Below are positions 6,100 to 34,895 of a stretch of 39,704 nucleotides of DNA, one piece after another. Position numbers and translations under genes: made by a program. This stretch comes from Natator depressus. Its lineage: Eukaryota. A model generated the notes under the pieces. That model did no database searches and was not told the DNA's origin. It saw only the letters and a program-made list of their open reading frames with translations. The stretch covers positions 1 through 39,704 of the forward strand of contig NW_027439781.1 of NCBI RefSeq assembly GCF_965152275.1, read 5' to 3'. Within the stretch, counting starts at the first letter, position 1. The number at the start of each line of letters is the position of its first letter.

Positions 6100-6952
6100 T
6101 TCCCCTTCTCTGGCCTCCGACACCCCTGCTCCAGCCTGGCTCTGACCAGGGGTCTGGCTCTGACCAGGGGCCTGATCCCCCCCTTTTTAAATCCTGGTTT
6201 CCATTCAGTCCATAGAAAGCCAGTGTAAAGCAGTCTGGGTGCAGCTGGACCAAGCTGTAGGACTCCCTGATGCAGGATATTACTTAGTGAAATGACTAGT
6301 TTCCTAGCTGGTGTAAATCAGTGTCACTCCATGGGCATTTACACCAGTATTCTGGAAAATCTAGATTGAGAACCCCTGCTATCCCTGCCCTGGGCTCCCC
6401 CACCCCACATCTCAGACAATGAGCCCCAATCCTGACCCACAGCCCCTTGCTGTCCAAGCCCTGGGCTCCGTCACCCCCAGCTCTGCTGATGCCCCTCACA
6501 CCCGCCCCCTGCTGGTTGCACTCCCAGCTCTCTTTCCAGTCTCCATTTTCCATTCCCATCCATCCTTTGCACCCCTTTTCCCATTCCCAATGCCCCTCTG
6601 ACTGATCATTGTGACCCCCTTCCCGCCGCCCTCCATCCCACCTCTGGTACAGGACACTCCGTTGCTGTCCCTTTAAGTGCCTCCACCCAGCGCCTGAGAG
6701 CTGCTCCCCGCTCCCCTCCCCTCTCCTCCCTCCCCTCTTCCCCCCTTTCTCTCTGTCACAGCCGGCCTCAGAGCCGCTGCCTGGATCCAAGCAGCCGCTG
6801 CCTGCCCTCCATCACCCCCACTACCATGTGCAGCCCCCAGGCCTCTCCTCCATCCGGCTACAGCAAGGTCGGATCTCAGCCCCACTGATCTCCCCTCATC
6901 CCAACCCCACCCCCGGTCTGTGTGTGTCCCCCCCCCTTCCGCACCCCATCAG

Positions 6953-7078: not shown

Positions 7079-7089
7079 GTACCCCAGGA

Positions 7090-11822: not shown

Positions 11823-11906
11823 CTGGTCTCCTCCATCCAAGCCGTCATGGCCTCCACAGCCGGATACATCGTTTTCAGCTCCTGCCAACACGTTATCGAT
11901 GACCAG
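11823..11906 (+). CDS. TLCD3B: TLCD3B exon 3. (K/R)LVSSIQAVMASTAGYIVFSSCQHVIDD(Q).
   Basis: Acceptor ctgcag|G, donor GACCA|GTGAGT. Matches human LVSSVQAIMASTAGYIVSTSCKHIIDDQ. Confidence 0.85.
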
Positions 11907-11999: not shown

Positions 12000-12260
12000 C
12001 CCCCAGCCTGGCCTGCTTCCCCTGGGCAGCCCGGCCTCACCCACCAGGGGGCGCTGTGGGGTGGGGGTGGGGCGCTTGCTATTGGGGGAGCTCCTGGCTA
12101 CCCCAACCTCAGCATCTCCCAGCAGGGGGCGCTGAGGGGAGGGGCAGGGTGCTGGCTGTGGGGGGAGCTCCTGGCTACTCCAGCCCGGCCTTGCCCAGCA
12201 GGGGGCGCTGTGGGGAGCAAGGCTGTGGTCTCCCTGTCTACGGTGCTGAAGGGCCTGGGA
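12000..12260. repeat. About 3 tandem copies of an 80-bp unit (ccagcagggggcgctg...gggggagctcctggctac).
   Basis: Direct periodicity. Confidence 0.6.
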
Positions 12261-12337: not shown

Positions 12338-12830
12338 CTAGGACCCACTGTATGGTGGGGGAGGGCTGGAGCCAGGACTCCTGGGTTCTATTCCTAACTC
12401 TGCCACTGATCTCCTCTTCATGGGGAGCAGAGTGGGTAGGCTGGACAACGCCCCCTCCTGGCGCTGGGCAGCAGAATGCCCGGGAGGCTCCAGCCCCCTG
12501 CCGCCTGCACCAGCCCCTCCCAGTGTCGCTGGCATATTCACCTTCCTCCCCAGAGCTGAGCCGGAATTATCCCCCGCCCGCTCCTGAGCCCTCTCCTGGG
12601 AGCACAGATGGGGCCAGCGAGCTAATCCCCTCGGCCGCGGATCAGCCTGCCCCGCAGCTCTGGGAGGGGAGTGGGGTCTGGTGGTTAGAGCGAGGGAGGC
12701 TGGGAACCAGGACTCCTGGGTTCAACTGGCTCTGGAGGGGAGTGGGGTACAGTGGTTAGAGCAGGATTGGGCTGGAAGCCTGGACTCCTGGGTTCTATCC
12801 CGGCTTTATGAATGGGGTGCCCCCGCAGGC
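12338..12830. mobile_element. MIR/CORE-type tRNA-derived SINE head fragments (tggttagagc ... ggagccaggactcctgggttctattcctaactctgccactga), several partial copies.
   Basis: Similar to the MIR consensus GGAGCCAGACTGCCTGGGTTCGAATCCCGGCTCTGCCACT. Related fragments are at 5655-5740 and 33290-33412. Confidence 0.6.
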
Positions 12831-13029: not shown

Positions 13030-13500
13030 CCCTCCGCATCATTGGGCTAGTGCCTCTCACTCCCGACCCGCAGCCCCCTGCTAGCCCAGCCCTGCCCCCC
13101 CCAGCTGTGCCGGTGCCCCTCACTCCCGACCCGCAGTCCCCTGCTAGCCCAGCCCTCAGCCCCTCCAGCCCTGCCGGTGCCCCTCACTCCCGACCCACAG
13201 CCCCCTGCTAGCCCAGCCCTCAGCCCCTCCAGCCCTGCCGGTGCCCCTCATTCCCGACCCGCAGCCCCCTGCCAGCCCAGCCCTGCCCCCCCCTGCCCTG
13301 CCGGTGCCCCTCACTCCCGACCCGCAGCCCCCTGCTAGCCCAGCCCTGCCCCCCCCCAGCTGTGCCGGTGCCCCTCACTCCCGACCTGCAGCCCCCTGCT
13401 AGCCCAGCCCTGCCGGTGCCCCTCACTCCCGACCCACAGCCCCCTGCTAGCCCAGCCCTGCCCCCCAGCTCTGCTGGTGCCCCTCACTCCCGACCCACAG
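13030..13500. repeat. Dispersed minisatellite family, array A. Core ctgccggtgcccctcactcccgacccgcagccccctgc, unit about 60 bp, about 8 copies.
   Basis: Direct periodicity. The same core in reverse complement occurs at 13680-13920. Confidence 0.8.
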
Positions 13501-13679
13501 CCCCTGAATCCTTTGTCCCACTGCAGCATCCTGGGCTGCGGCTCTGGCATGGGGCCTAATCGGCTCACACTGGGCAGAGGCCTCTGTCAGCACAATTTGG
13601 CAGCGGGACTGCAGCATGGGGCGGCGGGGGGGGGGGTGCAGGTGGAGGGGCCGGGGGCCAAGCTTGGAAGGAGGGACAG

Positions 13680-13920
13680 GGCCTATGGCTGGGCTAGCAG
13701 GGGCTGCGGGTCGGGAGTGAGGGGCACCGGCAGAGCTGGGGGGGCAGGGCTGGGGTAGTAGGGGCTGCGGGTCGGGAGTGAGGGGCACCAGCAGAGCTGG
13801 GGGGCAGGGCTGGGCTGGCAGGGGCTGCGGGTCGGGAGTGAGGGGCACCAGCAGAGCTGGGGGGCAGGGCTGGGGTAGCAGGGGCTGCGGGTTGGGAGTG
13901 AGGGGCACCAGCAGAGCTGG
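13680..13920. repeat. Dispersed minisatellite family, array B (gggctgcgggtcgggagtgaggggcaccggcag...). It is inverted relative to array A and forms an imperfect palindrome with arms about 180 bp apart.
   Basis: Reverse complement of array A units. The + and - strand ORFs read the same [10 protein letters not shown] peptide. Confidence 0.8.
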
Positions 13921-14380
13921 GGGGTATCCTCGCTGTGGGTCATGGTTGTGGCTGCCCCATGGGCTGTGGGGGGTGGAGGCGCCTGGCTCGGCTCCGGGTG
14001 GAGGAGGCTGCGTTCCCTATGACCTTGCAGCAGCTGTTGCCCGTCAATACTCCATCGATCCTCCCAGTCCCTACCCACCAGGCCACACTGCCGCCACGCT
14101 CGCCAGCCTGCGCCCCATGGCCTGTCTCCCCCATCCCGGTGAGCAGGCCAGGGCAGGTTACCCCTGCCAGCCCCACCCTCTGCCTGAGGTGCTGCTGGAT
14201 CCCCCAGCCCAGCCCCCCACACAGCTCCCCCCAGGCCCTGGCACTGCAGAGCCCCTCCTCCTGGCAGCTTCCGCTGCCTTGTGTCCCACCCCTCTCCCCT
14301 AGCACCCCCAGCAGGGCCCCACTGCCCCCGCCAGCTTCCCCTGCCCCCGCGGCAGCTCTAACCCCTCTGTCTTCCCCCAG

Positions 14381-14600
14381 GCACTGGCTGACGAGCGCCT
14401 ACACGGAGTTTGCGGTGCCCTACTTCATCTACGACATCTACGCCATGTTCCTCTGCCACTGGCACAGGTACCGGGTGAAGGGGCACGAGGCTGCGGGGCC
14501 CCGCTCGCTGCGCACCGCCACCCGCGCCTTCCTGCGCAAGGAGTTCCTCATGGTGCTGCACCACCTCTGCATGGTGCTGGTGTGCTTCCCCGTCTCCGTG
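14381..14600 (+). CDS. TLCD3B: TLCD3B exon 4. (Q)HWLTSAYTEFAVPYFIYDIYAMFLCHWHRYRVKGHEAAGPRSLRTATRAFLRKEFLMVLHHLCMVLVCFPVSV.
   Basis: Strong match to human HWLSSAYTQFAVPYFIYDIYAMFLCHWHKHQVKGH...KEFLMVLHHAAMVLVCFPLSV. Acceptor cttcccccag|G, donor GTG|GTGAGTGGG. Confidence 0.9.
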
Positions 14601-15560
14601 GTGAGTGGGCCCCGATAGCCGCAGGGGGCTGCACCCCCTCTGCATGGTGCTGGTGTGCTTCCCCGTCTCCGTGGTGAGTGGCCCCCGATAGCCGCAGGGG
14701 GGCCCCCCGATAGCCGCAGGGGGCTGCACCCCCTCTGCATGGTGCTGGTGTGCTTCCCCGTCTCCGTGGTGAGTGGCCCCCGATAGCCGCAGGGGGCTGC
14801 ACCCCCTCTGCATGGTGCTGGTGTGCTTCCCCGTCTCCGTGGTGAGTGGCCCCCGATAGCCGCAGGGGGGCCCCCCGATAGCCGCAGGGGGCTGCACCCC
14901 CTCTGCATGGTGCTGGTGTGCTTCCCCGTCTCCGTGGTGAGTGGGCCCCGATAGCCGCAGGGGGCTGCACCCCCTCTGCATGGTGCTGGTGTGCTTCCCC
15001 GTCTCCGTGGTGAGTGGGCCCCGATAGCCGCAGGGGGGCCCCTGATAGCCGCAGGGGGCTGCACCCCCTCTGCATGGTGCTGGTGGGCTTCCCCCTCTCC
15101 GTGGTGAGTGGGGCCCGATAGCCGCAGGGGGGCCCCTGATAGCCGCAGGGGGCTGCACCCCCTCTGCATGGTGCTGGTGGGCTTCCCCCTCTCCGTGGTG
15201 AGTGGGCCCCGATAGCCGCAGGGGGGCCCCCCGATAGCCGCAGGGGGCTGCACCCCCTCTGCATGGTGCTGGTGTGCTTCCCCGTCTCCGTGGTGAGTGG
15301 GCCCCGATAGCCGCAGGGGGCTGCACCCCCTCTGCATGGTGCTGGTGTGCTTCCCCGTCTCCGTGGTGAGTGGGCCCCGATAGCCGCAGGGGGGCCCCTG
15401 ATAGCCGCAGGGGGCTGCACCCCCTCTGCATGGTGCTGGTGGGCTTCCCCCTCTCCGTGGTGAGTGGGGCCCGATAGCCGCAGGGGGGCCCCTGATAGCC
15501 GCAGGGGGCTGCACCCCCTCTGCATGGTGCTGGTGGGCTTCCCCCTCTCCATGGTGAGTG
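14601..15560 (+). repeat. About 11 tandem copies (73 bp, or 94 bp with an insert) of the 3' end of TLCD3B exon 4 plus its donor (ctctgcatggtgctggtgtgcttccccgtctccgtg|gtgagtgggccccgatagccgcagggggctgcaccc). They fill almost all of intron 4.
   Basis: Direct. Each copy keeps a GTGAGTGG donor and a ...ccgcag|g acceptor-like site. Confidence 0.9.
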
Positions 15561-15700
15561 GGGCCCGAGATCCCCAGGAGGCCGTAAGAAGGCAAGGGGT
15601 GGGACCGAGCCACAGGAGGGAAGTGGGGGTCCTGAGCCCATGAGGGGGCAGGAGGGGGCTAGTTCCCACCAGCTGCCCCTCACCCCCCCTCTCTCCCCAG

Positions 15701-15796
15701 CTGTGGCGCCAGGGGAAGGGCGATTTCTTCCTGGGCTGCATGCTGATGGCCGAGCTGAGCACCCCCTTCGTCTCCCTGGGCAAGGTGCTCATCCTG
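15701..15796 (+). CDS. TLCD3B: TLCD3B exon 5. [32 protein letters not shown].
   Basis: Matches human [32 protein letters not shown]. Acceptor ctctccccag|, donor CTG|GTGAGT. Confidence 0.9.
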
Positions 15797-15799
15797 GTG

Positions 15800-16070
15800 A
15801 GTACCCGCCGGGGGGAGGGGAGGGGAGGGCGGATGCCTGGGTTCTCTGCCCAGCTCGTGGTGGGAGGGGAGTGCCCGGACGCCTGGGTTCCGTTCCCAGC
15901 CGGAGGGGCGGGGGTGCCCGGACGCCTGGGTTCCGTTCCCAGCCGGAGGGGCGGGGGTGCCCGGACGCCTGGGTTCCGTTCCCGGGCGGGGGTGCCCGGA
16001 CGCCTGGGTTCCGTTCCCGGGCGGGGGGCGGGGGTGCCCGGACGCCTGGCTCCCTCACCCCTCTCTCTCC
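15800..16070. repeat. About 5 tandem copies of a 50-bp SINE-B-box-derived unit (ggtgcccggacgcctgggttccgttcccagccggaggggcggg) just upstream of the exon 6 acceptor.
   Basis: Direct periodicity. The unit resembles the ctgggttc B-box region of the MIR-like SINE. Confidence 0.7.
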
Positions 16071-16075
16071 CCCAG

Positions 16076-16384
16076 TACAAGCGGCAGCACACCCTGCTGC
16101 ACAAGGTGAACGGGCTGCTCATGCTGGTGACCTTCTTCTGCTGCCGCATCCTGCTCTTCCCCTACATGTACCGGGCCTACGGGCGCCACGCCGGGCTGCC
16201 CCTGCACCGCGTGCCCCTCGCCCTGCCGCCCGCCTACAACCTGGGCGCCGCCCTGCTCCTGGCCCCCCAGCTCTACTGGTTCGGCCTCATCTGCCGCGGG
16301 GCCGTCCGCCTCTTCCGCCGTGCCCCGCCCACGGACCCCGCCCTGCGCAACGGGCATGGCCCCGGGGGGCGGGCGCTGGACTGA
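16076..16384 (+). CDS. TLCD3B: TLCD3B last exon. [102 protein letters not shown] followed by a stop (TGA at 16382-16384).
   Basis: Matches human [80 protein letters not shown]. Acceptor ctctctcccccag|. Confidence 0.9.
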   Translation, partial: [102 protein letters not shown]

Positions 16385-16660
16385 GAACCCCCGGTGCCAG
16401 GGGCACGGCCTCTGGGGGCGGGCGCTGGACTGAGACCCCCCCAGTGCCACGGGCACCGCCCCCAGGCCGGGTGCTGGACTGAGACCCCCGCCCTGCGCCA
16501 CGGGCACGGCCCCGGGGGGCGGGCGCTGGACTGAGAACCCCCGGTGCCAGGGGCACGGCCTCTGGGGGCGGGTGCTGGACAGAGACCCCCCGGTGCCACG
16601 GGCACCGCCCCCGGGGGCGGGCGCTGAACAGAGACCCCCCCAGTGCCACGGGCACCACCC
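16330..16660 (+). repeat. About 6 tandem copies of a 60-bp unit (gccacgggcacggccccggggggcgggcgctggactgagaacccccggt). They include the last 14 codons and stop of TLCD3B and extend into the 3'UTR.
   Basis: Direct. The first copy is coding, and later copies retain ctggactgaga. Confidence 0.8.
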
Positions 16661-16842
16661 CAGCCTACCTGCTCTGTGCTAAGGGCATATCCTCGGGGGG
16701 GCTCGCTGGCCTGAGCCCCCCTGCCCGTGTGGTGCCATGGGCACAGCCCCAAGGCCCTGGCATGAGACCGTCCCCGCGTGGTGGGCACGGGGTGAACTGA
16801 CATCTGGGGCCAGCGCCCAGAGCCTCAGCTTCTAACGACTTT

Positions 16843-16860
16843 ATTTATTTATTTATTGGG
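16843..16860 (-). terminator. (TTTA)n run. On the - strand it reads AATAAATAAATAAA and is a candidate poly(A) signal for the - strand gene ending at 17726.
   Basis: gactttatttatttatttatt on the + strand. Inference only. Confidence 0.3.
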
Positions 16861-17725
16861 GGCCCTCCCTGGAATTCTCCGGGGGCTGCTGCAGGAGGGA
16901 GTGGGGCCCCCCTTGGACTGACAGGGGCTGACTGCAACCCCCATTCTCAGGGGTCTGCCCAGTAGCACCTGGGGCGGTCCCCCTGGGTGGTGCAGCTCAG
17001 ACACCCCCAGTAATGGGGGAATGAGGTGCAAATCGGGGGGTTGGCTGTGTTGGGAGGCGAGGGTTTAGCCTGGAGATTTGGGGGACCCCTGGGAATCTCA
17101 GGGGGCCACCCAGGGGATTGAATTCCTGCCCCACCAGAGTGTGGGGGGACCCAGCCAGACTCCACCAGCAGACAGTTTGGGTGGACTTGGGGACCCCCCA
17201 CACTGCCCCCCACTGTAGCAATAACCAGGCAGCGGGTGGGGAACTGACCCCCCCAACAAGGACTGTGAGCTCTGCACCCCCCAGCTGCTCGCTGGGTCAG
17301 GATGTATACGGGGGGGGGATTTCCAACCCTGGGGGCTGCAAAGTATTAAAGGAGCCTTGATCCAATGCCAGTGCCGCTGCCTCCGGGTGATTATTACCCC
17401 CCACCCCCCAGACTGCCCCCCAGCCAGTGCCTCAGGGTGATTATGAACCCCCAGCCCCCCAAAACTGCCCCCCAGCCAGCACCTGCAGGGGACTGTTACT
17501 GCCCCCCCCCCCGGGTGCCAGGCACTGGGGATGCCAAGACAATGCAGCTCTTTACTGGGGGGGGCAAAGCTGAACCCTGACATCCTGCAGCTCCTCAGCT
17601 CTGCGTCCTGCAGACCCTAAGAGAGAACAAGGGGGGGGTCACTGCCAGCCTCCCGGCAGCACTGGGGCGGGGGGGGTTGGAGAGGACCAGGCCAGGGAAT
17701 AGGACCCAGGCGTCCGGGGAGACAC

Positions 17726-17817
17726 CTACAGTGTGCTGCAGATCTGGTAGAGGAGGAAGAGCAGGGTCAGCAGGACGGAACCAAGCAGGATGCGGTGCAG
17801 GACTCGGGGCAGGGGAT
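17726..17817 (-). CDS. Small transmembrane protein gene X, last exon. (N)PLPRVLHRILLGSVLLTLLFLLYQICSTL followed by a stop (TAG at 17728-17726).
   Basis: Acceptor ccccccaccag|AT. Phase fits exon 2. Hydrophobic C-terminal transmembrane segment. Confidence 0.5.
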
Positions 17818-17959
17818 CTGGTGGGGGGCAAAAAGGCCAACGTGGGGACAAAGTGGGAGTGCACCCCCCCAAGCCTCCGCCCTGGGGCCAAAGCTTATGG
17901 ACATCGAGTGTGACCCCCCGTCCCCTCCGAAACTACTGCTGGGGCAGAGCTTGGGGGAG

Positions 17960-18300
17960 CCCAGGGCTGGGCTAGCAGGGGCTGCAGGTCGGGAGTGAGG
18001 GGCACCGGCAGGGCTGGGGGCGCAGGGGCTGCGGGTCGGGAGTGAGGGGCACCGGCAGGGCTGGGGGCGCAGGGGCTGCGGGTCGGGAGTGAGGGGCACC
18101 GGCAGGGCTGGGGGGGCAGGGGCTGCGGGTCGGGAGTGAGGGGCACCGGCAGGGCTGGGGGCGCAGGGGCTGCGGGTCGGGAGTGAGGGGCACCGGCAGG
18201 GCTGGGGGGGCAGGGGCTGCGGGTCGGGAGTGAGGGGCACCGGCAGGGCTGGGGGCGCAGGGGCTGCGGGTCGGGAGTGAGGGGCACCGGCAGGGCTGGG
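17960..18300. repeat. Dispersed minisatellite family, array C (gggctgcgggtcgggagtgaggggcaccggcagggctgggggcgcag, 47 bp, about 7 copies), in the intron of gene X.
   Basis: Direct periodicity. Same core as 13680-13920. Confidence 0.85.
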
Positions 18301-18412
18301 CTGGGCTAGCAGGGGGCTGCGGGTCCGGAGCCGGGCGGGAGGTAGCCTGGAGCTGGGGGCAGGACTGAGGGGCACTGTCTGTCTGGGGATCCCTGCCCCC
18401 CCATCCCCTCAC

Positions 18413-18538
18413 TGGCTGCGAAGAACACGGGCTTCTCCCCGATGTAGCGGTAGGTCGCCAGGATCTTGGCTCGGTCGTCGTCGGGATAATCGAACCAGAG
18501 CGGCCCCGGCGCCTGCCACGTCCCTCCCCTCGGCGTCG
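18413..18538 (-). CDS. Gene X exon 2. (A)TPRGGTWQAPGPLWFDYPDDDRAKILATYRYIGEKPVFFAA.
   Basis: Acceptor ttcttggcactgcag|CG. Donor GCAGCCA|GTGAGG. Phase 1 in and out. It is not one of the 60-aa-or-longer ORFs in the track because it is a short exon. Confidence 0.5.
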
Positions 18539-18639
18539 CTGCAGTGCCAAGAAACCAGAGCAGGGAGCCGGCTACGGGGGAAGACGCTCTGGTACGTCAA
18601 GGCCAGGACTCTACTGCTCCGCAACAGGACAGCTGAGCT

Positions 18640-18960
18640 TCGACTTGGTGCTGGCTAAGGGGCCGTGCCACACGATGTCGGGACACAGCAGGCGGCGCTG
18701 GTGACGGGGGGTTCAGCCCGGGGGAGCCGTTTTGGGGGGTCACCCAGCAGGCGGAGCTGGTGACGGGGGGTTCAGCCCGGGGGAGCCGTTTTGGGGGGTC
18801 ACCCAGCAGGCAGAGCTGGTGATGGGGGGTTCAGCCCGGGGTAGCCGTTTGGGGGGGTTGCCCAGCAGGCGGTGCTGGTGACGGGGGGTTCGGGACAGGG
18901 GAGCCGTTTGGGGGGGGGCAGCGCCCAGCAGGCGGTGCTGGTGACGGGGGGTTCGGGACA
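18640..18960. repeat. About 5 tandem copies of a 60-bp unit (caggcggagctggtgacggggggttcagcccgggggagccgttttggggggtcacccagcagg) in intron 1 of gene X.
   Basis: Direct periodicity. Confidence 0.8.
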
Positions 18961-19013
18961 GGGGAGCCGTTTGCGGGGGGCTTGGCCAGCAGTGCTCGGG
19001 GCCTGGCCCTCAC

Positions 19014-19110
19014 CTGTCCCCTGGTCGGTGCTGTTAGGGGAGAGTGGTCTGGCGCTGAGGGTCGTCACCAGCACCCACAGCAGGAGCCATTCTGGAGCCC
19101 AGTGCCCCAT
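19014..19110 (-). CDS. Gene X exon 1. ATG at 19110-19108. MGHWAPEWLLLWVLVTTLSARPLSPNSTDQGT plus one base. Signal-peptide-like.
   Basis: The hydrophobic N-terminus looks like a signal peptide. Donor GGGACAG|GTGAGGGCC. The three exons together give a 104-aa protein with a signal peptide and a C-terminal transmembrane segment. The position, convergent with TLCD3B, suggests C16orf92/FIMP. That is an inference only. Confidence 0.45.
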
Positions 19111-19245
19111 AACTACCTCCAGTTGGGGCGGAGCTCTACCTGGCCACACCCCCTTGGAGTGTGACATCACAATGCCCACAGAGGTCAGGTATGTGCACAC
19201 AGCCCCACCCCCAATGAGCCACGACCCGCCACGTTGGCTGCCACT

Positions 19246-19251
19246 TTTATT
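19246..19251 (-). terminator. MVP: MVP poly(A) signal AATAAA on the - strand (+ strand ttttattg), about 70 bp after the stop.
   Basis: Direct motif at the expected distance downstream of the stop at 19321-19319. Confidence 0.5.
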
Positions 19252-19318
19252 GCAGAGAATAAGGCACACGCTGGGCCGGACAATGGGGTCCCGTTTCCAT
19301 GGGGGAGGGGCGGGGCCC

Positions 19319-19450
19319 TCACTCGTGGTGCCCCGGGGAGGGCCTGGGCAGGACACCCAGCAGCCCCCCAGCCGTGGAGAAGAGGTTGATGGGGGAGGAG
19401 CCGTCGGTGATGAGGGCCGACTGGAGGCCCAGGCCCTGCAGCAGCTTCAC
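19319..19450 (-). CDS. MVP: MVP last coding exon. [43 protein letters not shown] followed by a stop.
   Basis: Matches human [33 protein letters not shown]. Acceptor ctgctccccccag|GTG. Confidence 0.9.
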
Positions 19451-19722
19451 CTGGGGGGAGCAGGGGGGTGGGTGAGTGAGTGGGACCCAGTCCCCAGCCC
19501 CTCCCCCACCCGTGTAAGCTCCACCCGTCCTGGGCCCCACCCGCAGAACCCACCAGCCCCTACTCCACCCACTCCAGCCCTACAGCCAGCTCCGCCCCCC
19601 AGCCCTAGCGCCACCTATGCCAGCACCAGTTTCCTCAGGTCCTGCCCCTAAGCCCCTCCCCCACATGCTCACCCAAGCCTAGCCCCGCCCCACCCTCCTC
19701 TAAGCCCCGCCCCCCGACCCAC

Positions 19723-19911
19723 CTGCAGCTCCGGCCCGGCCAGCGCGATGTCGCGCAGGGTCTCGGGCCCGATGGCTTCCGTCACCTGCTGGAACTTCTT
19801 CACCTCCACCTCGGCCAGCAGCCGGGCCCGCGCCGCCTCCTGCTCGCCCTGCGCCCGGGCGAAGCGCAGCTCCTGCTCCCGCGCCTGGCCCAGCCGGGCC
19901 AGCTCCGACTC
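19723..19911 (-). CDS. MVP: MVP exon. [63 protein letters not shown].
   Basis: Matches human [63 protein letters not shown]. Sites gcgcag| and CAG|GTGGGT. Confidence 0.9.
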
Positions 19912-20078
19912 CTGCGCCCGCCGGGGGGACGGGGGACAGGCTCAGTGCTGCCTGGGCCACGCCCCCTCCCCGGGCTCCGCCTCCCACCCCCGCGGGCCAC
20001 GCCCCCTCCCCGGGCTCCACCTCCCACCCCCGCGGGCCACGCCCCCTCCCCGGGCTCCCCCCAACCCCGCCCACTCAC

Positions 20079-20205
20079 CGTCTCAATGGCGGCTGCCTCC
20101 GCCTTCAGCTTGGCCTGTTCCACGGCCGCCTCGCCCGCGATCCGCGCCGCCTCCGCCTTGGACTGGGCCTCGGCCCGCGCCGCACCGGCGCTCTCCACTG
20201 CCGCG
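20079..20205 (-). CDS. MVP: MVP exon. (S)AAVESAGAARAEAQSKAEAARIAGEAAVEQAKLKAEAAAIET.
   Basis: Matches human [43 protein letters not shown]. Sites cccccccccag|C and ACG|GTGAGT. Confidence 0.9.
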
Positions 20206-20476
20206 CTGGGGGGGGGCCAGACAGGGTCACAGACCCACACATACGCCCCCCCGGTCTCCCAGAGGCCCCCCCCAGCCACTGATCCCCCAATTCTGCCCCC
20301 GGACTCCCCCGCTGCCCCAATCCCACTGCCGGCCGTGGACCTCCCCCCGATCCTGCCCCCTGCCGCTGACCGCCCCGCGACACCCTGCCCCCAGACTCCC
20401 CTGACCCCACCAGATCCCTCCCCTGGCAGCTGGCCACCCTTCCCCTGACCCCCCATCACCCCCCGGGTCCCCCAAC

Positions 20477-20593
20477 CTCAGTGCCTCCAGCTCCAGCAGC
20501 TCCTTCCGGGCCCGCTCAGCCTCCGCCTGGTCCAGGATTTTCTGCCGCTCCAGCCGCCCCCGGGCCTCCTGTTCCAGCCGCTCAGCCTCATGC
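20477..20593 (-). CDS. MVP: MVP exon. (R)[38 protein letters not shown].
   Basis: Matches human [38 protein letters not shown]. Sites tctcccccag|G and CTGAG|GTTGGG. Confidence 0.9.
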
Positions 20594-20669
20594 CTGGGGG
20601 AGACAGGCTGGGATGAGGGGGGCTGTGGGGCAGGGCTGGGGCGGGAGCAGGCCCCTGGGGAGCCTGTAC

Positions 20670-20881
20670 CTGGCGGCCGCCTCCTGGGAGTTGGTGGTGA
20701 TCTCGATGGCCAGCTGGACGCTCCTCTGCAGCGCGTCCCGCGTGCGCTGGTCCACCGGCTCCACGCTCTGGATGTCCACGCTGCTCACCACCAGCCCGTT
20801 CTGGGGGAAGCGCAGGCAGCTCCGCAGCTGCAGCTCCGTGTCGAAGCCAAACACAGCCGAGCAGATGATCCGGTTCGAGTT
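20670..20881 (-). CDS. MVP: MVP exon. [70 protein letters not shown].
   Basis: Matches human NSARIIRTAVFGFE...[47 protein letters not shown]. Sites tccccccag| and GCCAG|GTACAG. Confidence 0.9.
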
Positions 20882-21194
20882 CTGGGGGGAGCAGGGGATT
20901 GTGGGGCACTGGGGGGAGCGGCTGCAGCACCCCAGAACCCCCATATTCACCCTGGCAGGTACAACCGGGCAGCCAGACGTGCGGATGGCCCAGAAGGACG
21001 ATTCCAGGAACCGCAGACAATGGGTCCTGTTTGACCCGGGGAGAAGTGGCGGATGGGGGCTCAGTGGTACCCCAGTTCCAGATTGCACCCTGGGTAGGGC
21101 TGTGCCAGGAGGAGCAGGCCAGGGGGCTTGGGAAGGCGTGGTGGGGGAATGCCAGGGGGGCACGGGAAGGGGTGCAGAGGGGCCCCCCCCATAC

Positions 21195-21339
21195 CTTGTG
21201 GAAGTCGTCGAACGTGACGGAGGCCACGGCCCCACGGATGCGGGAGGCCAGTGCTTTGCAGGCATCACCCACGAAATCCGGGACGCTGAAGAGCCGGGAG
21301 AGCGCCGGGGGGTCAGGGGGCGACGGCACCTCAAAGTGC
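21195..21339 (-). CDS. MVP: MVP exon. (W)[48 protein letters not shown].
   Basis: Matches human HFEV...[35 protein letters not shown]. Sites tgtccccccag|G and AAG|GTATGG. Confidence 0.9.
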
Positions 21340-21639
21340 CTGGGGGGACAAGGCAGTTGGGGGGCTGGGGAACAGGCTTCCCCGGTCCCCCTCCCTGCAA
21401 CCTCCACCCCTCCCAGCCCCACCCCCCTGGGCAGAGGGGGCTGTAGGGCCGGCGCTGGGCCCAGGGGCAGAGCCCCAAGAGTAGCCTGGAGACCCTGAGA
21501 TTGGGGCAGTGCCTGGGCTCTGCAGGGCGTAAGCAGCAGGCTGGGGTGGGGGGTGCCCGACAGGGCCTGTGACACCCCCCTGCTGCCTCCTGCCCTTCCC
21601 CAATCATGGCCCCATCAGCCCCTCTCCCCAGCCCCTCAC

Positions 21640-21837
21640 CAGTTGTAGGCCAGCTGGAGCTGCAGCCGGGCATGGTCGGCCGTCTCGATGGTGACGATGT
21701 CGGCACAGAAGTCAGGGCCCAGCAGCAGGCAGAGTGAGCGCCGGGTGTGGGGGGCCTTGGGCCGCCCCCCTGACAAGCTCAGCACCGTGAACTGCTCGTC
21801 CGGGCCCAGCAGAACCAGCTCCGGGCCCAGCACCACC
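21640..21837 (-). CDS. MVP: MVP exon. (R)[65 protein letters not shown](W).
   Basis: Matches human [66 protein letters not shown]. Sites ccccgccag|G and AACTG|GTGAGG. Confidence 0.9.
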
Positions 21838-21992
21838 CTGCGGGGAGGGGAACATGAGCCCTACACGCCACGGGAGGGAGCCCCAGCGACCCCCAGCCCC
21901 GCTTCCCCTGGGACCCCCCTCCCTCCATGAGCTGCATCCAGCCCCCGACCCAAGTCCCCCTCCCACACACACAGCCACAAGCCCCTGCTCAC

Positions 21993-22231
21993 CTGGCCTG
22001 CCGCTCCCGGTAGTCGTACACCTGCACGGCTGCGTTGTGGGGCACCTGGTAACTCACCACCCGTGTCTTGTCGCGGGGGGGCCCCTCACCTCCCTGGGGG
22101 GGGGCCCCGGAACGGTCAGCCACGGGGTCCCGGCCCGAGGACAGCAGGGCCTCCACGTTGGGGGGCAGCTCCTTCTCCCAGAGCTCCTCGGCCTCCGTCA
22201 GCATGTAGGTGTGGCCGATCACCGCCCGCAC
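21993..22231 (-). CDS. MVP: MVP exon. [79 protein letters not shown](R).
   Basis: Matches human [44 protein letters not shown]...[27 protein letters not shown]. Sites tctcgccag| and GCCAG|GTGAGC. Confidence 0.9.
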
Positions 22232-22371
22232 CTGGCGAGAGGGGGGAGTCCATGCGGGGGCAGGGATATGGGGTACCAGGGGTCAGTGGGGCAGGCCAGG
22301 GGTCAGGGATATGGGGAATTAGGGGTCAGTGGGGCACTGGGGGGCAGGGATGGGGCCGGGGCCCTGCTCAC

Positions 22372-22530
22372 CTTGCCTGTCTTGATGTCGCGCACGTAGA
22401 TGCCCTCGTTCTCGCCCAGGGGGGTGGCCTGGCGCCGCTCCAACACCTCCACCTCCACCGGCGGCACGTACTCCAGGGGCCCCCGGATGAGCCAGCAGTC
22501 GCCCGGCTTCCGCTGCAGCCCACGGCCGCC
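22372..22530 (-). CDS. MVP: MVP exon. [53 protein letters not shown].
   Basis: Matches human [43 protein letters not shown]. Sites acaccctcag| and AAG|GTGAGC. Confidence 0.9.
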
Positions 22531-22539
22531 CTGAGGGTG

Positions 22540-22930
22540 TCGGGATCCCGGTGCCCCTCACTCCCGACCCGCAGCCCCCTGCCCCCCCCGCCGGTGCCCC
22601 TCACTCCCGACCCGCAGCCCCCTGCCCCCCCTGCCGGTGCCCCTCACTCCCCACCCGCAGCCCCCTGCCCCTCCTGCCGGTGCCCCTCACTCCCCACCCA
22701 CAGCCCCCTGCCCCCCCTGCCGGTGCCCCTCACTCCCCACCCACAGCCCCCTGCCCCCCCTGCCGGTGCCCCTCACTCCCCACCCACAGCCCCCTGCCCG
22801 CCCTGTGCCCCTCACTCCCCACCCGCAGCCCCCTGCCTCCCCCGCTCTGCCGGTGCCCCTCACTCCCCACCCGCAGCCCCCTGCCTCCCCCGCTCTGCCG
22901 GTGCCCCTCACTCCCGACCCGCAGCCCCCC
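22540..22930. repeat. Dispersed minisatellite family, array D (ccggtgcccctcactcccgacccgcagccccctgcccccc, unit about 45-50 bp, about 8 copies), in an MVP intron.
   Basis: Direct periodicity. Same core as the arrays at 13030-13920 and 17960-18300. Confidence 0.85.
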
Positions 22931-22956
22931 GCCAGCCCAGCCCTGGACTCCCCCAC

Positions 22957-23082
22957 CTCATCCGAGTCCTCCAGCTTGCTGAGTGCCCGCAGCAGCAGCC
23001 CTTCCTCCTCCGAGAGGATGTAGATGTCTTGGATCCCCTCCTTCAGAGACTCCCCTGGCTGCAGGAAGAACGACTTCTCCCC
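22957..23082 (-). CDS. MVP: MVP exon. [42 protein letters not shown].
   Basis: Matches human [44 protein letters not shown]. Sites ggtccag|GGG and GATGAG|GTGGGG. Confidence 0.9.
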
Positions 23083-23159
23083 CTGGACCAACGAAGGGGG
23101 AGGTCTGTGAGAATTTCCACGGCTACCCAAGAAATGTGGGGAGGGAGCGTAGGCATATA

Positions 23160-25300
23160 GTCTAGGTAATATGGTCATATCATTTACTGTGCATATAAAC
23201 TAGAAAATATGGCAAGATCATGCCTCAATGAATATTTTATTCCTTTTCCCACTTATTGCCAAAGAAACAAGGCAACACCTGCCCAGATAGTCTGAAAAAT
23301 ACAGTTAGACCCACCCGACTCCAAGGTGAGGAGCTGCTTTTTCTATTATTCTACGTGTAGCCTAGAAAATACAGTAACCGCTTGCCTATATTATAGGAAA
23401 TACGGTAACCCCCCTTCCACAATGGCCTGGTCAACCATCACCTTTAAAGTGGAAATACAGTAACATCTGCTCCTATACCCTGAGTAATATGGTACCCCCG
23501 TGCCGCCCCCAGCTGTAGCTGCTCCTATGACCTGGCAACAGACACTTCCCCCACCCATCTATAACTGCAGCTATAATCTGGTATATACGGTAGAAAATAA
23601 AGAAACAAAGACAGTAACAGAAGGCCACTAGCCGTCACCTTCAGCCCCCAACTCAAACCTCTCCAGCACACCATGGAGGATCTACAACCGATCCTGAGGG
23701 GCGACCCCTCGCTCTCACAGATCTTGGGAGACAGGCCAGTCCTTGCCTACAGACAGCCCCCCAACCTGAAGCAAATACTCACCAGCAACCACATACCACA
23801 CAACAGAACCACTAACCCAGGAACCTATCCTTGCAACAAAGCCCGTTGCCAACTGTGTCCACATATCTATTCAGGGGACACCATCACAGGGCCTAATACC
23901 ATCAGCCACACTATCAGAGACTCGTTCACCTGCACATCCACCAGTGTGATCTATGCCATCATGGGCCAGCAATGCCCCTCGGCCATGTACATTGGTCAAA
24001 CTGGACAGTCTCCACGTAAAAGAATAAATGGACACAAATCAGACGTCAAGAATTATAACATTCATAAGCCAGTCGGAGAACACTTCAATCTCTCTGGTCA
24101 CGCGATTACAGACCTAAAAGTGGCTATTCTTCAACAAAAAAACTTCAAAAACAGACTCCAGCAAGAGACTGCTGAATTGGAATTTATTTGCAAACTGGAT
24201 ACAATTAACTTAGGCTTGAATAGAGACTGGGAGTGGATGGGTCATTACACAAAGTAAAACTATTTCCCCATGTTTATCCCCCTCCCCTCACTGTTCCTCA
24301 GACGTTCTTGTCAACTGCTGGAAATGGCCCACCTTGATTATCACGACAAAAGGTTTCTTTCTCTGCTGCTGGTGATAGCTCACCTCACCTGATCACTCTC
24401 CTTACAGTCTGTGTGGTCACACCCCTTGTTTCATGTTCTCTGTGTATATAAAATCTCCCCACTCTATTTTCCACTGAACGTGTCCGATGAAGTGAGCTGT
24501 AGCTCACAAAAGCTCATGGTCAAATAAATGGGTTAGTCTCCAAGGTGCCACAAGTCCTCCTGTTCTTTTTGCGAATACAGACTAACACGGCTGCTACTCT
24601 GAAGCCTGTATATACGGTAGCCAACTCCTAGGTTAACCATACCAGTCTATCCACATCTGTCTCTTTATTTCTACTAATTATGGTAGACAGCCATTCTGGG
24701 CCCCATTCAGCTACCGTACTTACTAGGATACAGGAGGCTACAACAAAGAGGTAATTAGAAGGGTAACTATGAAATACCATAGAGGCACATCATTACCATA
24801 ATTACTAGCATAAATGTGCCCCACAGCTATATCCAGAGCTACTGTAATGTCAGATAAACAAAACTACCGTATATGCTAGAATAAACTTGTACAAACAATA
24901 TTTGGTTACCCTATGTACTAGGATAAACATGCCCCTACAAGATATAGTTACCATATATAATGGTGTAAATACACCCAATGAGATACACATCATTACCATA
25001 GTTACTGACACAAGCCCCTCCCCAACATAAAATGGACTAGCATAAATATTCCTCACATACAGTTGTACTATATTCACTAGAATATAAGTGACCCTTCAAT
25101 CTAAAGTGCCATGGTACTTAGTAGAATACATATGCCCCACAGCACTACCGCATTTAGTGGAATAAATGCGCCCCGGGAGCTATGCAGCCTTACCAGAGGC
25201 AGGGGAACAAAGCCTTCCCTGAACACAGACACAGTACTACGGGTGCTACCGTATTCCCTAAAGCAAAGGTGGCCCCGGAGTTTACACTAGTACCATATTG
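23160..25300. mobile_element. AT-rich interspersed-repeat block in an MVP intron. It contains a Penelope-like element (PLE) fragment: a GIY-YIG endonuclease ORF at 23673-24257, flanked by inverted arrays of a degenerate 50-60-bp unit. The left array carries aatacggtaacc-type motifs and the right array carries gttaccgtat-type motifs.
   Basis: The ORF has a CCHH-like zinc finger (CNKARCQLCPH) followed by a GIY-YIG motif (SVIYAIMGQQCPSAMYIGQTGQSPRKRINGHKSD...KPVGEHF). Coupling of reverse transcriptase with a GIY-YIG endonuclease defines PLEs, which is established knowledge. The reverse-transcriptase part is absent here, so the element is 5'-truncated. Confidence 0.55.
23673..24257 (+). pseudogene. 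5'-truncated PLE ORF encoding the C-terminal GIY-YIG endonuclease domain only. It is unlikely to be functional on its own.
   Basis: 194-aa ORF from the track. The motifs are given in the mobile-element feature above. Confidence 0.5.
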
Positions 25301-25325
25301 TCATGTGTACACATGGCCGCTATAC

Positions 25326-25562
25326 CTTGATCACCTTCTCCTGGCCCAGCTGGGGCTTGCCGTTGGGCCCCACGGGGTCGCACACCACGCAGTACTGGCG
25401 GCTGCTCAGCGTGGTGATGTCCACAATGCCCACCACCTCCTCGTAGACGTTGGGGATGTAGGCCTCACTCTGAGCGAGTGTCACCAGCCACTCCTCCCCA
25501 GTCCGGCGCACCGTGTCCTCCGGGTCCCGGAAGGTCTTGGTGGCGCGGAGATGCAGCGCCCT
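25326..25562 (-). CDS. MVP: MVP exon. [79 protein letters not shown].
   Basis: Matches human [79 protein letters not shown]. Sites ccccatag| and AAG|GTATAG. Confidence 0.9.
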
Positions 25563-26117
25563 CTATGGGGGAAAGGGGAACACGGCCATCAGCATGAGGG
25601 GAGCCAGGTCCTGGCTATTCCCTCCTTCCCCAAGGCCCCCCACCTCCACCCCCATGTCCACCTACTCTCCCCTCCCCCAGATCCCCCTCTTCCCCAGGGT
25701 CCCCCACATCTTCTCCTTGTCCATGGGGTCAACCCCACACTACTCCTTCCCCCCCAGGTCACATCCAGCTTCCCCCAATTTCCTCCCCACCACATGCCCC
25801 CAAGGATCAGAGCCATTTCACACCCTCCCACTCCCTCCCCACCCTGGACTCCCCCATCCCCTCCACTCCCAGACAGCACCATGCCCCAATCTCATCCCTC
25901 CCCACCACCACTCCCCTTAGGGGCAGGGCTGGGAACCCTCTAACCTCAGTCCCGCCCCCTCAGCCAATAAGAAGGCCACCTCACAGCAAGGGAGCTCCTT
26001 CCCCGGGTTGGAAACCCAGCCCCACCCTGTCCTGCCCCCCACCCGGGTGCAGATTGCACACCTGCCCCCCGCCACGGTCACACCGACTGCCACCAGCACC
26101 CCTTGCCCCCCCCTCAC

Positions 26118-26212
26118 CTTCTCCGTCAGCACAAAAGCATCCACAATGTCAACCACCTCCTCAAACACGCCAGGAAGATACGCACCCACTCGCTTCACCA
26201 GCCACTCCTCAC
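26118..26212 (-). CDS. MVP: MVP exon. (G)[31 protein letters not shown].
   Basis: Matches human [31 protein letters not shown]. Sites ccacccag|GT and AAG|GTGAGG. Confidence 0.9.
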
Positions 26213-26239
26213 CTGGGTGGGGGGAGAGAGACATGGCAA

Positions 26240-26680
26240 CAGATCAGGAGTGAGGGGGACCGGCAGAGCTGGGGGGACAGGCCCAGGGCTGGGGGGGCTG
26301 CGGGTCGGGAGTGAGGGGCACCGGCGGAGCTGCGGGGGGGGGGGCAGGGCTGGGCTAGCAGGGGCTGTAGGTCGGGAGCGAGGGGCACCGGCAGAGCGGA
26401 CGGGGGGACGGGCCCAGGGCGGTGGGGCGGGAGCGAGGGGCGCCGGCAGACCGGATGGGGGGACGGGCCCAGGGTGGCGGGGCGGGAGCGAGGGGCGCCG
26501 GCAGAGCGGACGGGGGGACGGGCCCAGGGCGGGAGCGAGGGGCGCCGGCAGAGCGGACGGGGGGACGGGCCCAGGGCTGGGGGGCGGGAGCGAGGGGCGC
26601 TGGCAGAGCGGACGGGGGGACAGGCCCAGGGCTGGGGGGCGGGAGCGAGGGGCACCGGCAGAGCGGACGGGGGGCGGTAC
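26240..26680. repeat. Dispersed minisatellite family, array E. This is a diverged variant (cgggagcgaggggcgccggcagagcggacggggggacgggcccagggc, unit about 60 bp) whose first units are the canonical gggctgcgggtcgggagtgaggggcaccggc. It lies in an MVP intron.
   Basis: Direct periodicity. Confidence 0.8.
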
Positions 26681-34845: not shown

Positions 34846-34895
34846 ACCGGGTGTCCTGGCTCCTAGCCCCCCTAACCCTGCCCCCTGCTCTGCAG

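What the first reader, a model, noticed from the sequence alone, without database searches (positions are those of the whole stretch)
13030..26680. One minisatellite family (core GGGCTGCGGGTCGGGAGTGAGGGGCACCGGCAG) seeded into introns of three genes, once as an inverted pair
There are arrays of a 47-60-bp unit with the same 33-bp core at five sites. Two are in TLCD3B intron 3, at 13030-13500 in one orientation and 13680-13920 in the other. One is in the small-transmembrane-gene intron 2 (17960-18300). Two are in MVP introns (22540-22930 and 26240-26680). The two TLCD3B arrays are inverted relative to each other, with a spacer of about 180 bp. That gives a long imperfect palindrome able to form a hairpin or cruciform. 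All copies are intronic and within 14 kb of each other. That suggests local spread by gene conversion or transposition of a satellite monomer, or a shared sequence preference.
Basis: seen in the sequence. Interest (0 to 1): 0.55.

Follow-up and report, generated by a model that had tools for sequence, protein, structure and literature searches.

The report
Old turtle intron minisatellite family
Five intron repeat arrays sharing a G-rich 33-bp core are real, but they belong to an old turtle-specific minisatellite family kept at the same sites in distant turtles, and the inverted pair has flipped the DNA between its arms.

Summary
The 33-bp core has 29 matches with at most 3 mismatches (0 expected), all in five arrays: 13050-13506(-), 13687-13924(+), 17962-18330(+), 22548-22945(-) and 26240-26674(+). 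A sixth, degenerate solo copy lies at 6440-6510.

The window is a cheloniid sea turtle. The arrays sit in introns of TLCD3B, FIMP (C16orf92) and MVP.

- **Age.** All five arrays occur at the same sites and orientations in Chelonia, Lepidochelys, Gopherus, Mauremys and Platysternon. They are absent from ostrich and lizard.
- **No recent spread.** 170 of 197 units are closest to the orthologous array of another species.
- **Dispersal.** The same unit is read into gene models of IRF3, SLC7A7 and an IZUMO-domain gene in other turtles.
- **Context.** The region lies near a chromosome end and is 33.5% minisatellite.
- **Structure.** Each unit carries a canonical G-quadruplex motif.
- **Inverted pair.** It is equally old. 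Its 180-bp spacer is inverted in three testudinoids relative to three sea turtles, with outer flanks unchanged. This indicates recombination between the arms.

It is a new member of a known kind (GC-rich, G4-prone intron-filling minisatellites). Interest is modest.

The parts
13050..13506 (-). Array A1, in TLCD3B coding intron 2. About 7.5 units of 61-64 bp (one of 48 bp). C-rich on the TLCD3B sense strand. Left arm of the inverted pair.
   Evidence: Orthologous arrays in Chelonia, Lepidochelys, Gopherus, Mauremys and Platysternon.
13507..13686 (.). Unique 180-bp spacer between the inverted arrays. Same orientation in Chelonia and Lepidochelys, inverted in Gopherus, Platysternon and Mauremys.
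13687..13924 (+). Array A2, 4 units of 60-61 bp. G-rich on the TLCD3B sense strand. Right arm of the inverted pair. Sea turtles have 4-13 units; testudinoids have a single unit.
17962..18330 (+). Array B, in a FIMP (C16orf92) intron. 7 units of 47 bp plus a degenerate edge unit. C-rich on the FIMP sense strand.
   Evidence: FIMP identity. Orthologous arrays in Chelonia (17 units), Mauremys (11 units of 45-49 bp), and degenerate in Gopherus.
22548..22945 (-). Array C. It fills 93% of the MVP intron 22531-22956. 9 units of 39-48 bp. G-rich on the MVP sense strand.
   Evidence: Same intron in all six other turtles.
26240..26674 (+). Array D. It fills 94% of the MVP intron 26214-26678. 8 units of 47-67 bp with the diverged core GGGAGCGAGGGGCGCC. 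C-rich on the MVP sense strand.
   Evidence: The same 55-bp variant unit occurs in Chelonia (about 31 units) and Lepidochelys (about 34 units).
6440..6510 (-). Degenerate, unamplified copy (about 1.6 units) of the family, about 450 bp upstream of TLCD3B coding exon 1 (6957-7079).

Best explanation
These are five old, orthologous arrays of a family so far seen only in turtles and present at other turtle loci too. The family consists of GC-rich minisatellites with an ancestral unit of about 61-64 bp: GGGAGTGAGGGGCACCGGCAGAGCTGGGGGGGCAGGGCTGGGCTAGCAGGGGCTGCGGGTC. The arrays sit in pre-existing introns of TLCD3B, FIMP and MVP, in a GC-rich, minisatellite-saturated region near a chromosome end.

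Shown:
- The arrays were already at these five sites, in these orientations, in the common ancestor of cheloniid sea turtles and testudinoid turtles.
- Since then each array has evolved on its own. Arrays differ by unit deletions (47-bp units in B, 39-48 bp in C, 55 bp in D) and by 2- to 10-fold copy-number change between species.
- There has been no detectable homogenisation between arrays, except possibly between the two inverted arms.
- Every unit carries a canonical G-quadruplex motif, GGGctgcGGGtcGGGagtgaGGGG.
- The segment between the inverted pair has been inverted at least once.

Inferred:
- Arrays grow and shrink by replication slippage or unequal exchange within the array. G4 or hairpin stalling may favour this.
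- The spacer flip arose by recombination or template switching between the arms.
- The arrays are tolerated intron filler rather than functional elements.

The original seeding mechanism is unknown.
For: **Reality.** 29 core matches against 0 expected; arrays.

**Species.** MVP exons are 98-100% identical to Natator depressus MVP, and unique flanks are about 99% identical to Chelonia.

**Orthology.**
- Core matches number 53 in Chelonia, 20 in Gopherus and 7 in Malaclemys, each against 0 expected.
- Arrays lie in the same MVP introns by exon mapping.
- Order and orientation (-,+,+,-,+) are the same in Chelonia, Lepidochelys, Gopherus, Mauremys and Platysternon.

**Independent evolution of each array.**
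- Array-specific unit variants are shared across species.
- 170 of 197 units are nearest to an orthologous array, 21 to a paralogous array and 6 tie. The exceptions are mostly between Chelonia A1 and A2.

**Restriction to turtles.**
- No hit with up to 8 mismatches in the syntenic ostrich or lizard locus.
- No hit in 241 million metagenome records.
- Among 1.84 billion representative proteins, only turtle gene models carry the translated unit.

**Dispersal.** IRF3 and SLC7A7 models of Chelonoidis and an IZUMO-domain model of Chrysemys end in the translated repeat.

**Context.**
- 33.5% of the window is minisatellite, in 30 blocks.
- The loci lie 0.7-1.1 Mb from a chromosome end in four assemblies.
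- The introns exist without this repeat in a lizard, at 228 bp and about 2.1 kb.

**G4.** 16-24 G4 motifs per kb in the arrays, against 4 per kb for the whole window. A G-quadruplex is predicted in the minimum-energy fold of unit dimers from four tested arrays (A2, B, C, D).

**Inversion.** The spacer matches in forward orientation in three sea turtles and in reverse in three testudinoids. Outer flanks stay forward, and the spacer-array junctions moved with the spacer.
Against: - Genome-wide copy number and chromosomal distribution of the family were not measurable. Dispersal rests on three mis-annotated gene models, seen as protein only.
- No turtle outside Chelonioidea and Testudinoidea was available (no trionychid, pleurodire, Chelydra or Dermochelys). 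The age is therefore a lower bound, and the direction of the inversion is unknown.
- Intra-array slippage and a role for G4 are inferred from pattern, not observed.
- The core consensus is unchanged in A1 in all six species, while the spacer differs by 5-14% between the clades. This leaves some room for constraint or biased conversion.
Confidence: 0.8

Rival explanations
1. Recent or ongoing local spread. A satellite monomer was copied among the three neighbouring genes by gene conversion or transposition within this 14-kb region, and the arrays are still being homogenised against each other.
For: Five arrays lie within 14 kb, and the core is identical in A1, B and several other arrays. Some Chelonia A1 units are nearest to A2 units of the same genome.
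Against: All five sites are shared with testudinoids. Each array has private unit lengths and variants that are shared across species. 170 of 197 units are nearest to the orthologous array of another species. The family also occurs in unrelated genes.
Confidence: 0.05
2. Seeding by a mobile element. The unit is the internal or tail repeat of a turtle transposable element. Each site began as an insertion of that element into an intron and later expanded. This concerns origin only and is compatible with the best explanation.
For: The unit occurs at unlinked genes in several turtle species. A solo unamplified copy exists at 6440-6510. Both orientations occur relative to transcription. Known precedent, from my own knowledge: some mouse and human minisatellites arose inside dispersed retroelements.
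Against: The 200-bp flanks of the six copies share no homology beyond the unit itself. In the two MVP introns the array starts 17-26 bp from one splice site and ends 4-11 bp from the other, leaving no room for other element parts. Similarity to the local tRNA-like 76-bp repeat is weak (z = 4.0, with one shuffle scoring higher). Repbase and Dfam could not be consulted.
Confidence: 0.3
3. Functional element under selection. The 33-bp core is kept because it binds a protein or folds into a G-quadruplex that matters. Possible roles are an intronic splicing signal, a recombination-hotspot motif or a chromatin boundary.
For: The core consensus is identical in A1 in six species and in C in the four testudinoids, while the adjacent unique spacer differs by 5-14% between the clades. 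The G-runs vary little outside CpG positions. A G4 is predicted in every tested unit type. Two MVP introns consist almost wholly of the repeat and must still be spliced.
Against: - The orientation relative to transcription is mixed: three arrays are C-rich and two are G-rich on the sense strand.
- Copy number varies from 1 to about 35 at one site.
- B has decayed in Gopherus, and the D core has drifted by 2-4 positions.
- Other, unrelated minisatellites at this locus are also shared with Gopherus.
- With 5-14% divergence, only about 2-5 changes are expected in 33 bp. Zero to five were seen, so the data fit neutrality in a slowly evolving lineage.
Confidence: 0.08
4. Assembly artefact. Repeats were collapsed or misplaced, or the spacer was mis-oriented, in GC-rich sequence that is hard to sequence.
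For: GC-rich tandem repeats are known to trouble sequencing and assembly (PMC6792250). The Platysternon locus holds 12,779 N.
Against: Seven independent assemblies show the arrays at the same sites. Spacer orientation follows phylogeny, with three of three sea turtles against three of three testudinoids. The arms and spacer (under 2 kb) are within the span of single long reads.
Confidence: 0.02

Closest known systems
Intron-filling GC-rich tandem repeats with G4 and inverted motifs in 'hidden' GC-rich avian genes (leptin, TNF-alpha, MRPL52, PCP2, PET100; PMC6792250)
   Same: Both are in sauropsids, in very GC-rich genes whose introns consist almost only of tandem repeats. Both carry G3+ runs able to form G-quadruplexes. 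In both, the same repeat occurs in different introns and in both orientations. The ostrich MVP locus fetched here shows the same general state.
   Different: The sequence family is different and, at this locus, found only in the turtles. Here orthology across two turtle superfamilies was shown.
Human GC-rich subtelomeric minisatellites with G4-forming units, CEB1 and CEB25 (PMC3486850)
   Same: Units are tens of bp long and GC-rich with strand asymmetry. The position is subtelomeric and each unit holds a G4 motif. Copy number is variable.
   Different: Those are single loci. Their G4-dependent instability was shown by experiment, whereas here it is only inferred. No within-species polymorphism data are available here.
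Jeffreys-type minisatellite families sharing a G-rich core (probes 33.6 and 33.15; from my own knowledge)
   Same: Many dispersed loci share a G-rich core. The linker of the turtle unit contains AGGGCTGGAGG and GGGCAGGGCTG strings, which I recall as resembling the 33.6 repeat and the Jeffreys core. This was not tested against those sequences.
   Different: The shared part here is a much longer and nearly exact 33-60 bp unit, which points to common descent of the loci rather than a short shared motif.
Inversions by recombination between inverted repeats, such as plastid inverted-repeat flip-flop and the human F8 intron-22 inversion (from my own knowledge)
   Same: A unique segment between two inverted homologous arms is found in both orientations while the outer flanks stay fixed.
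   Different: The scale is tiny: arms of 0.05-1 kb made of minisatellite units, and a 180-bp spacer. The inversion appears as a fixed difference between clades, not as an observed polymorphism.

Membership tests
Minisatellite | Head-to-tail tandem arrays with a unit of about 10-100 bp and an array length of 0.1 to several kb | tested here: met
   Units are 39-67 bp and arrays 238-457 bp in the window. Arrays reach about 2 kb in Lepidochelys.
Minisatellite | Copy number changes between related genomes | tested here: met
   A1 has 2-15 units, A2 1-13, B 2-17 and D 2-34 across six turtles. Within-species polymorphism was not testable.
G4-forming minisatellite (CEB1/CEB25-like) | Each unit holds four G3+ runs with loops of 1-7 nt | tested here: met
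   The motif is GGGctgcGGGtcGGGagtgaGGGG. Arrays hold 4-11 non-overlapping motifs each, 16-24 per kb against 4 per kb for the window. ViennaRNA places a G4 in the minimum-energy fold of unit dimers.
G4-forming minisatellite (CEB1/CEB25-like) | G4 formation shown in vitro, and G4-dependent instability | not testable with these tools
   Needs circular dichroism or NMR, and genetic assays.
Dispersed repeat family | The same unit occurs at unlinked loci in the genome | tested here: inconclusive
   Three further loci were seen only through gene models that read into the repeat: IRF3 and SLC7A7 in Chelonoidis, and an IZUMO-domain gene in Chrysemys. Their DNA could not be fetched, and no whole-genome count was possible.
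Repeat derived from a transposable element (SINE tail or internal VNTR) | Copies share non-repeat element sequence or target-site duplications | tested here: not met
   The 200-bp flanks of the six copies share no homology beyond the A1/A2 spacer.
Repeat derived from a transposable element (SINE tail or internal VNTR) | Match to a curated element consensus (Repbase or Dfam) | not testable with these tools
   No repeat library is available. A full-text search for the core found nothing.
Long palindrome or cruciform-forming inverted repeat | Two inverted arms with high complementarity | tested here: met
   All 238 nt of A2 pair with A1 at 89%. The fold gives -387 kcal/mol, z = -21.9.
Long palindrome or cruciform-forming inverted repeat | A short or absent spacer, which as I recall is needed for efficient cruciform extrusion and for palindrome fragility | tested here: not met
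   The spacer is 180 bp in the window and 154-180 bp in the other turtles.
Inversion mediated by inverted repeats | The segment between the arms is found in both orientations with the flanks unchanged | tested here: met
   The spacer is forward in the window, Chelonia and Lepidochelys, and reversed in Gopherus, Platysternon and Mauremys. The right flank is forward in all.

The most novel reading that the evidence does not exclude
The 33-bp core may be a functional sequence kept by selection for 100 million years or more. It could be a G-quadruplex or a protein-binding site, for example a splicing aid for introns made wholly of repeat, or a motif that directs recombination near the chromosome end. 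The inverted pair in TLCD3B may be a small recombination switch that still flips within turtle populations.
Probability: 0.08. Interest if true: 0.6.

Novelty: new member of a known kind. Interest (0 to 1): 0.3.

Why it matters
The finding gives a dated example of minisatellite arrays that stay at the same intron sites across two turtle superfamilies while their unit length and copy number drift. It shows that the intron-filling GC-rich repeats described in birds also occur in turtles, as a recognisable sequence family. It also provides a small natural case of an inversion between inverted minisatellite arrays.

In practice, these arrays help explain why the locus is hard to assemble and annotate. 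Three turtle gene models read into the repeat. There is no sign of a new mechanism.

Tried and rejected
- **Metagenome scans.** Exact-match scans of 241 million metagenome records for a 26-mer and a degenerate 21-mer of the core found nothing. This shows only that the sequence is not generic.
- **Literature.** Full-text searches for the core on both strands, and for turtle satellite catalogues, found no description of the family.
- **Translated array as a probe.** The word-indexed search was swamped by proline-rich candidates and gave one hit. The exhaustive search gave two more, plus one unrelated repeat protein, P0136.
- **DNA of a second locus.** Fetching the IRF3 locus failed because that model is not on record. 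No turtle IRF3 with a contig was found.
- **Other look-ups.** Natator and two Mauremys MVP isoforms were not on record.
- **Flank homology.** None was found among the copies, so I set aside a larger shared element or a segmental duplication.
- **Link to the tRNA-like 76-bp repeat.** The similarity is weak (z = 4.0, and one shuffle scored higher), so I did not adopt it.
- **Strong constraint on the core.** Considered and not adopted. Clade divergence in the unique spacer is only 5-14%, and array core consensuses differ from the family core by 0-5 positions.
- **CTCF-like site in the core.** I compared it by eye with the consensus from memory and saw no convincing match. This was not tested with a tool.
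Full report
**Observation.** The 33-bp core GGGCTGCGGGTCGGGAGTGAGGGGCACCGGCAG has 29 matches with at most 3 mismatches in the window. None of 100 dinucleotide-preserving shuffles gave any match. All matches fall in five tandem arrays that Tandem Repeats Finder also reports.

Splitting at a conserved anchor gives the following:

| Array | Coordinates | G-rich strand | Units |
|---|---|---|---|
| A1 | 13050-13506 | minus | about 7.5, mostly 61-64 bp |
| A2 | 13687-13924 | plus | 4, 60-61 bp |
| B | 17962-18330 | plus | 7, 47 bp |
| C | 22548-22945 | minus | 9, 39-48 bp |
| D | 26240-26674 | plus | 8, 47-67 bp, core drifted to GGGAGCGAGGGGCGCC |

The longest units, and the edge units of B and C, share the full form GGGAGTGAGGGGCACCGGCAGAGCTGGGGGGGCAGGGCTGGGCTAGCAGGGGCTGCGGGTC. 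The shorter units are therefore deletion derivatives of a unit of about 61-64 bp. A relaxed search found one more copy, a degenerate run of about 1.6 units at 6440-6510 on the minus strand.

**Inverted pair.**
- A1 and A2 are inverted around a unique 180-bp spacer, 13507-13686.
- Ungapped complementarity reaches 66 nt at 97%.
- With small bulges, all 238 nt of A2 pair with part of A1 at 89%.
- As single-stranded DNA, 13030-13930 folds at -387 kcal/mol, against -248 +/- 6 for shuffles.

A hairpin in single-stranded DNA is therefore plausible. As far as I recall, cruciform extrusion from duplex DNA is disfavoured by a 180-bp spacer.

**Genes and species.**
- tblastn with MVP maps the gene to the minus strand, from 27578 to 19295.
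- The best protein hits are turtle MVPs.
- Exon matches are 98-100% identical to Natator depressus MVP.
- Unique flanks are about 99% identical to Chelonia mydas.

The window therefore comes from a cheloniid sea turtle, probably the flatback or a very close relative.

- TLCD3B coding exons map to the plus strand at 6957-7079, 11820-11906, 14373-14603, 15686-15793 and 16067-16330. This places A1 and A2 in coding intron 2.
- The small gene between MVP and TLCD3B is FIMP/C16orf92 by the Pfam hit on its orthologues. KIF22 lies beyond MVP.
- Array D fills 94% of MVP intron 26214-26678, and array C fills 93% of intron 22531-22956.
- Relative to transcription, A1, B and D are C-rich on the sense strand, while A2 and C are G-rich.

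**Related loci.** I fetched the MVP locus with flanks from these species:

| Locus | Species |
|---|---|
| L001 | Chelonia mydas |
| L008 | Lepidochelys olivacea |
| L002 | Gopherus flavomarginatus |
| L007 | Mauremys reevesii |
| L006 | Platysternon megacephalum |
| L003 | Malaclemys terrapin (cut at a contig end) |
| L004 | ostrich |
| L005 | the lizard Hemicordylus |

- The core has 53, 20 and 7 matches in Chelonia, Gopherus and Malaclemys, against 0 expected in each.
- Exon mapping places arrays C and D in the same two MVP introns in every turtle.
- Wherever the sequence reaches that far, the five arrays appear in the same order and orientation. Gopherus keeps only a decayed B.
- Ostrich and lizard have no match even with 8 mismatches.
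- The ostrich introns are packed with other minisatellites.
- The two introns exist in the lizard at 228 bp and about 2.1 kb without arrays.

The arrays thus colonised pre-existing introns in a turtle ancestor older than the split of Chelonioidea and Testudinoidea. From published time trees as I recall them, that split is on the order of 100 million years old. I did not measure it here.

**How the arrays evolve.** Each array has private variants that are shared across species:
- The 55-bp GGAGCGAGGGGCGCC...GGACGGGCCCAGGGC unit of D occurs in the window and Chelonia.
- The 47/48-bp unit of B occurs in the window and Chelonia, and a 45-49-bp unit in Mauremys.
- The 60-bp GGGGTAGC variant of A2 occurs in the window and Chelonia.

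In a nearest-neighbour test, 170 of 197 units are closest to a unit of the orthologous array in another species. Only 21 are closest to a paralogous array of their own genome, and 6 tie. Most exceptions link Chelonia A1 with Chelonia A2, by margins of one or two bases. This hints at some exchange between the two arms only.

Copy number differs widely between species. For example, D has 8 units here and about 31-34 in Chelonia and Lepidochelys. A2 has 4 here, 13 in Chelonia and 1 in testudinoids.

One third of all departures from the core (53 of 162) are CpG transitions at 6 of the 33 positions.

This is the usual picture of arrays changing by slippage or unequal exchange within the array. There is no homogenisation among B, C and D. 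Other unrelated arrays of the window also have counterparts in Gopherus, so long persistence is not peculiar to this family.

**Is the core constrained?** The majority core is unchanged in A1 in all six species. It differs by 0-5 positions in the other arrays. Mismatch-only divergence of the unique spacer between sea turtles and testudinoids is 5-14%. That predicts roughly 2-5 changes in 33 bp. The data therefore do not require selection, and I do not claim it.

**Beyond this locus.** The translated array was used as a probe against protein collections. The hits are turtle gene models that run into the repeat:
- IRF3 of Chelonoidis abingdonii.
- SLC7A7 of Chelonoidis abingdonii.
- An IZUMO-domain protein of Chrysemys picta.

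One unrelated repeat protein (P0136) also scored. No non-turtle protein among 1.84 billion representatives carries the translated unit.

The family is thus present at other turtle loci and, so far, seen only in turtles. Its copy number is unknown, because this assay only detects arrays that were mis-annotated as coding. The DNA of those loci could not be fetched.

The six local copies share no flank homology. Neither a larger mobile element nor a segmental duplication is therefore visible.

**Context.**
- One third of the window (33.5%, in 30 blocks) is minisatellite, and this family makes up 14% of that.
- The locus lies 0.7-1.1 Mb from a chromosome end in four chromosome-level assemblies.
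- Each unit holds a canonical G4 motif. Arrays carry 16-24 motifs per kb, against 4 per kb overall.
- ViennaRNA predicts a G-quadruplex in unit dimers.

Closely similar states are described for GC-rich avian genes. [quoted passage not shown] Human subtelomeric G4 minisatellites CEB1 and CEB25 are another parallel (PMC3486850).

**The inversion.** I read all loci in the window's orientation.
- The right flank of A2 matches in forward orientation in every turtle.
- The spacer matches forward in Chelonia (98%) and Lepidochelys (99%).
- The spacer matches in reverse in Gopherus, Platysternon and Mauremys.
- The five spacers align at 87% mean column identity once the testudinoid ones are flipped.
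- The junction ...CAGCCCCTG|AATCCTTTGTCCC lies on the A1 side here and in Chelonia. In Gopherus it lies on the A2 side, as GGGACAAAGGGTTC|AGGGGCTGCGGG.

The breakpoints therefore lie inside the arrays. This is what recombination or template switching between inverted arms produces. Such an event also moves inner units from one arm to the other, which would account for A2 having one unit in testudinoids and 4-13 in sea turtles.

The direction of change cannot be set without an outgroup. Assembly error is unlikely, because orientation follows phylogeny in six independent assemblies.

**Verdict.** The hairpin potential is real, and the predicted inversion exists as a fixed difference between clades. 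The idea of recent local spread or gene conversion among the three genes is not supported.

The thing is an old family of G4-prone, intron-filling minisatellites, seen so far only in turtles and present at other turtle loci. It is a new member of a known kind and of modest interest.

Noticed in passing
window 14373-15568 (+); L002 26932-27321; L004 43285-44422: The 3' end of TLCD3B coding exon 3 (...LHHLCMVLVCFPVSVV) together with its GTGAGT 5' splice site is tandemly repeated about 11 more times in the downstream intron, in units of 73 and 95 bp. This makes a row of decoy exon ends. The same exon end is also repeated in Gopherus and, with a 155-bp unit, in ostrich.
   Followed up: partly
L004 15201-19263 (ostrich MVP): A 155-bp unit that holds a whole MVP exon ([26 protein letters not shown]) and its splice site is repeated about 26 times. 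The ostrich MVP gene spans 28.6 kb, against about 8-9 kb in turtles, and nearly every intron holds a different minisatellite.
   Followed up: no
window 7348-11184: A 3.8-kb purine-rich minisatellite (units of about 23/54 bp, GGAGGGATGGAGGCAGTGGCAG, GC skew about 0.7) fills TLCD3B coding intron 1. Overall, 33.5% of the window is minisatellite, in 30 blocks.
   Followed up: partly
window 6440-6510 (-): A degenerate, unamplified copy (about 1.6 units) of the same family lies about 450 bp upstream of TLCD3B coding exon 1. It is the only copy found outside an intron.
   Followed up: partly
window 23000-25200; ORF 23673-24257 (+): An AT-rich insertion (41-49% GC, against about 70% around it) lies in an MVP intron. 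It carries a 194-aa ORF whose sequence looks to me like the GIY-YIG endonuclease end of a Penelope-like retroelement; I judged this by eye from the ORF listing and ran no domain search.
   Followed up: no
window 12657-12795 and 34543-34863: A repeat of about 72-76 bp that looks tRNA-like to me (...GGTTAGAGC...GGACTCCTGGGTTC...) occurs as short tandem arrays at two sites, one in the TLCD3B intron and one in KIF22. So this is not the only family that recurs in the window.
   Followed up: no
window 12027-12217: A 77-bp minisatellite in the same TLCD3B intron weakly resembles the family unit (CAGCAGGGGGCGCTGTGGGGAGGGGCAGGG; local alignment z = 5.5 against shuffles). It may be a distant relative.
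   Followed up: partly
P0001, P0137, P0138 (Chelonoidis and Chrysemys gene models): Three Ensembl/UniRef turtle gene models (IRF3, an IZUMO-domain protein and SLC7A7) contain translated minisatellite units near or at the C-terminus. These are probably annotation errors caused by this repeat.
   Followed up: partly
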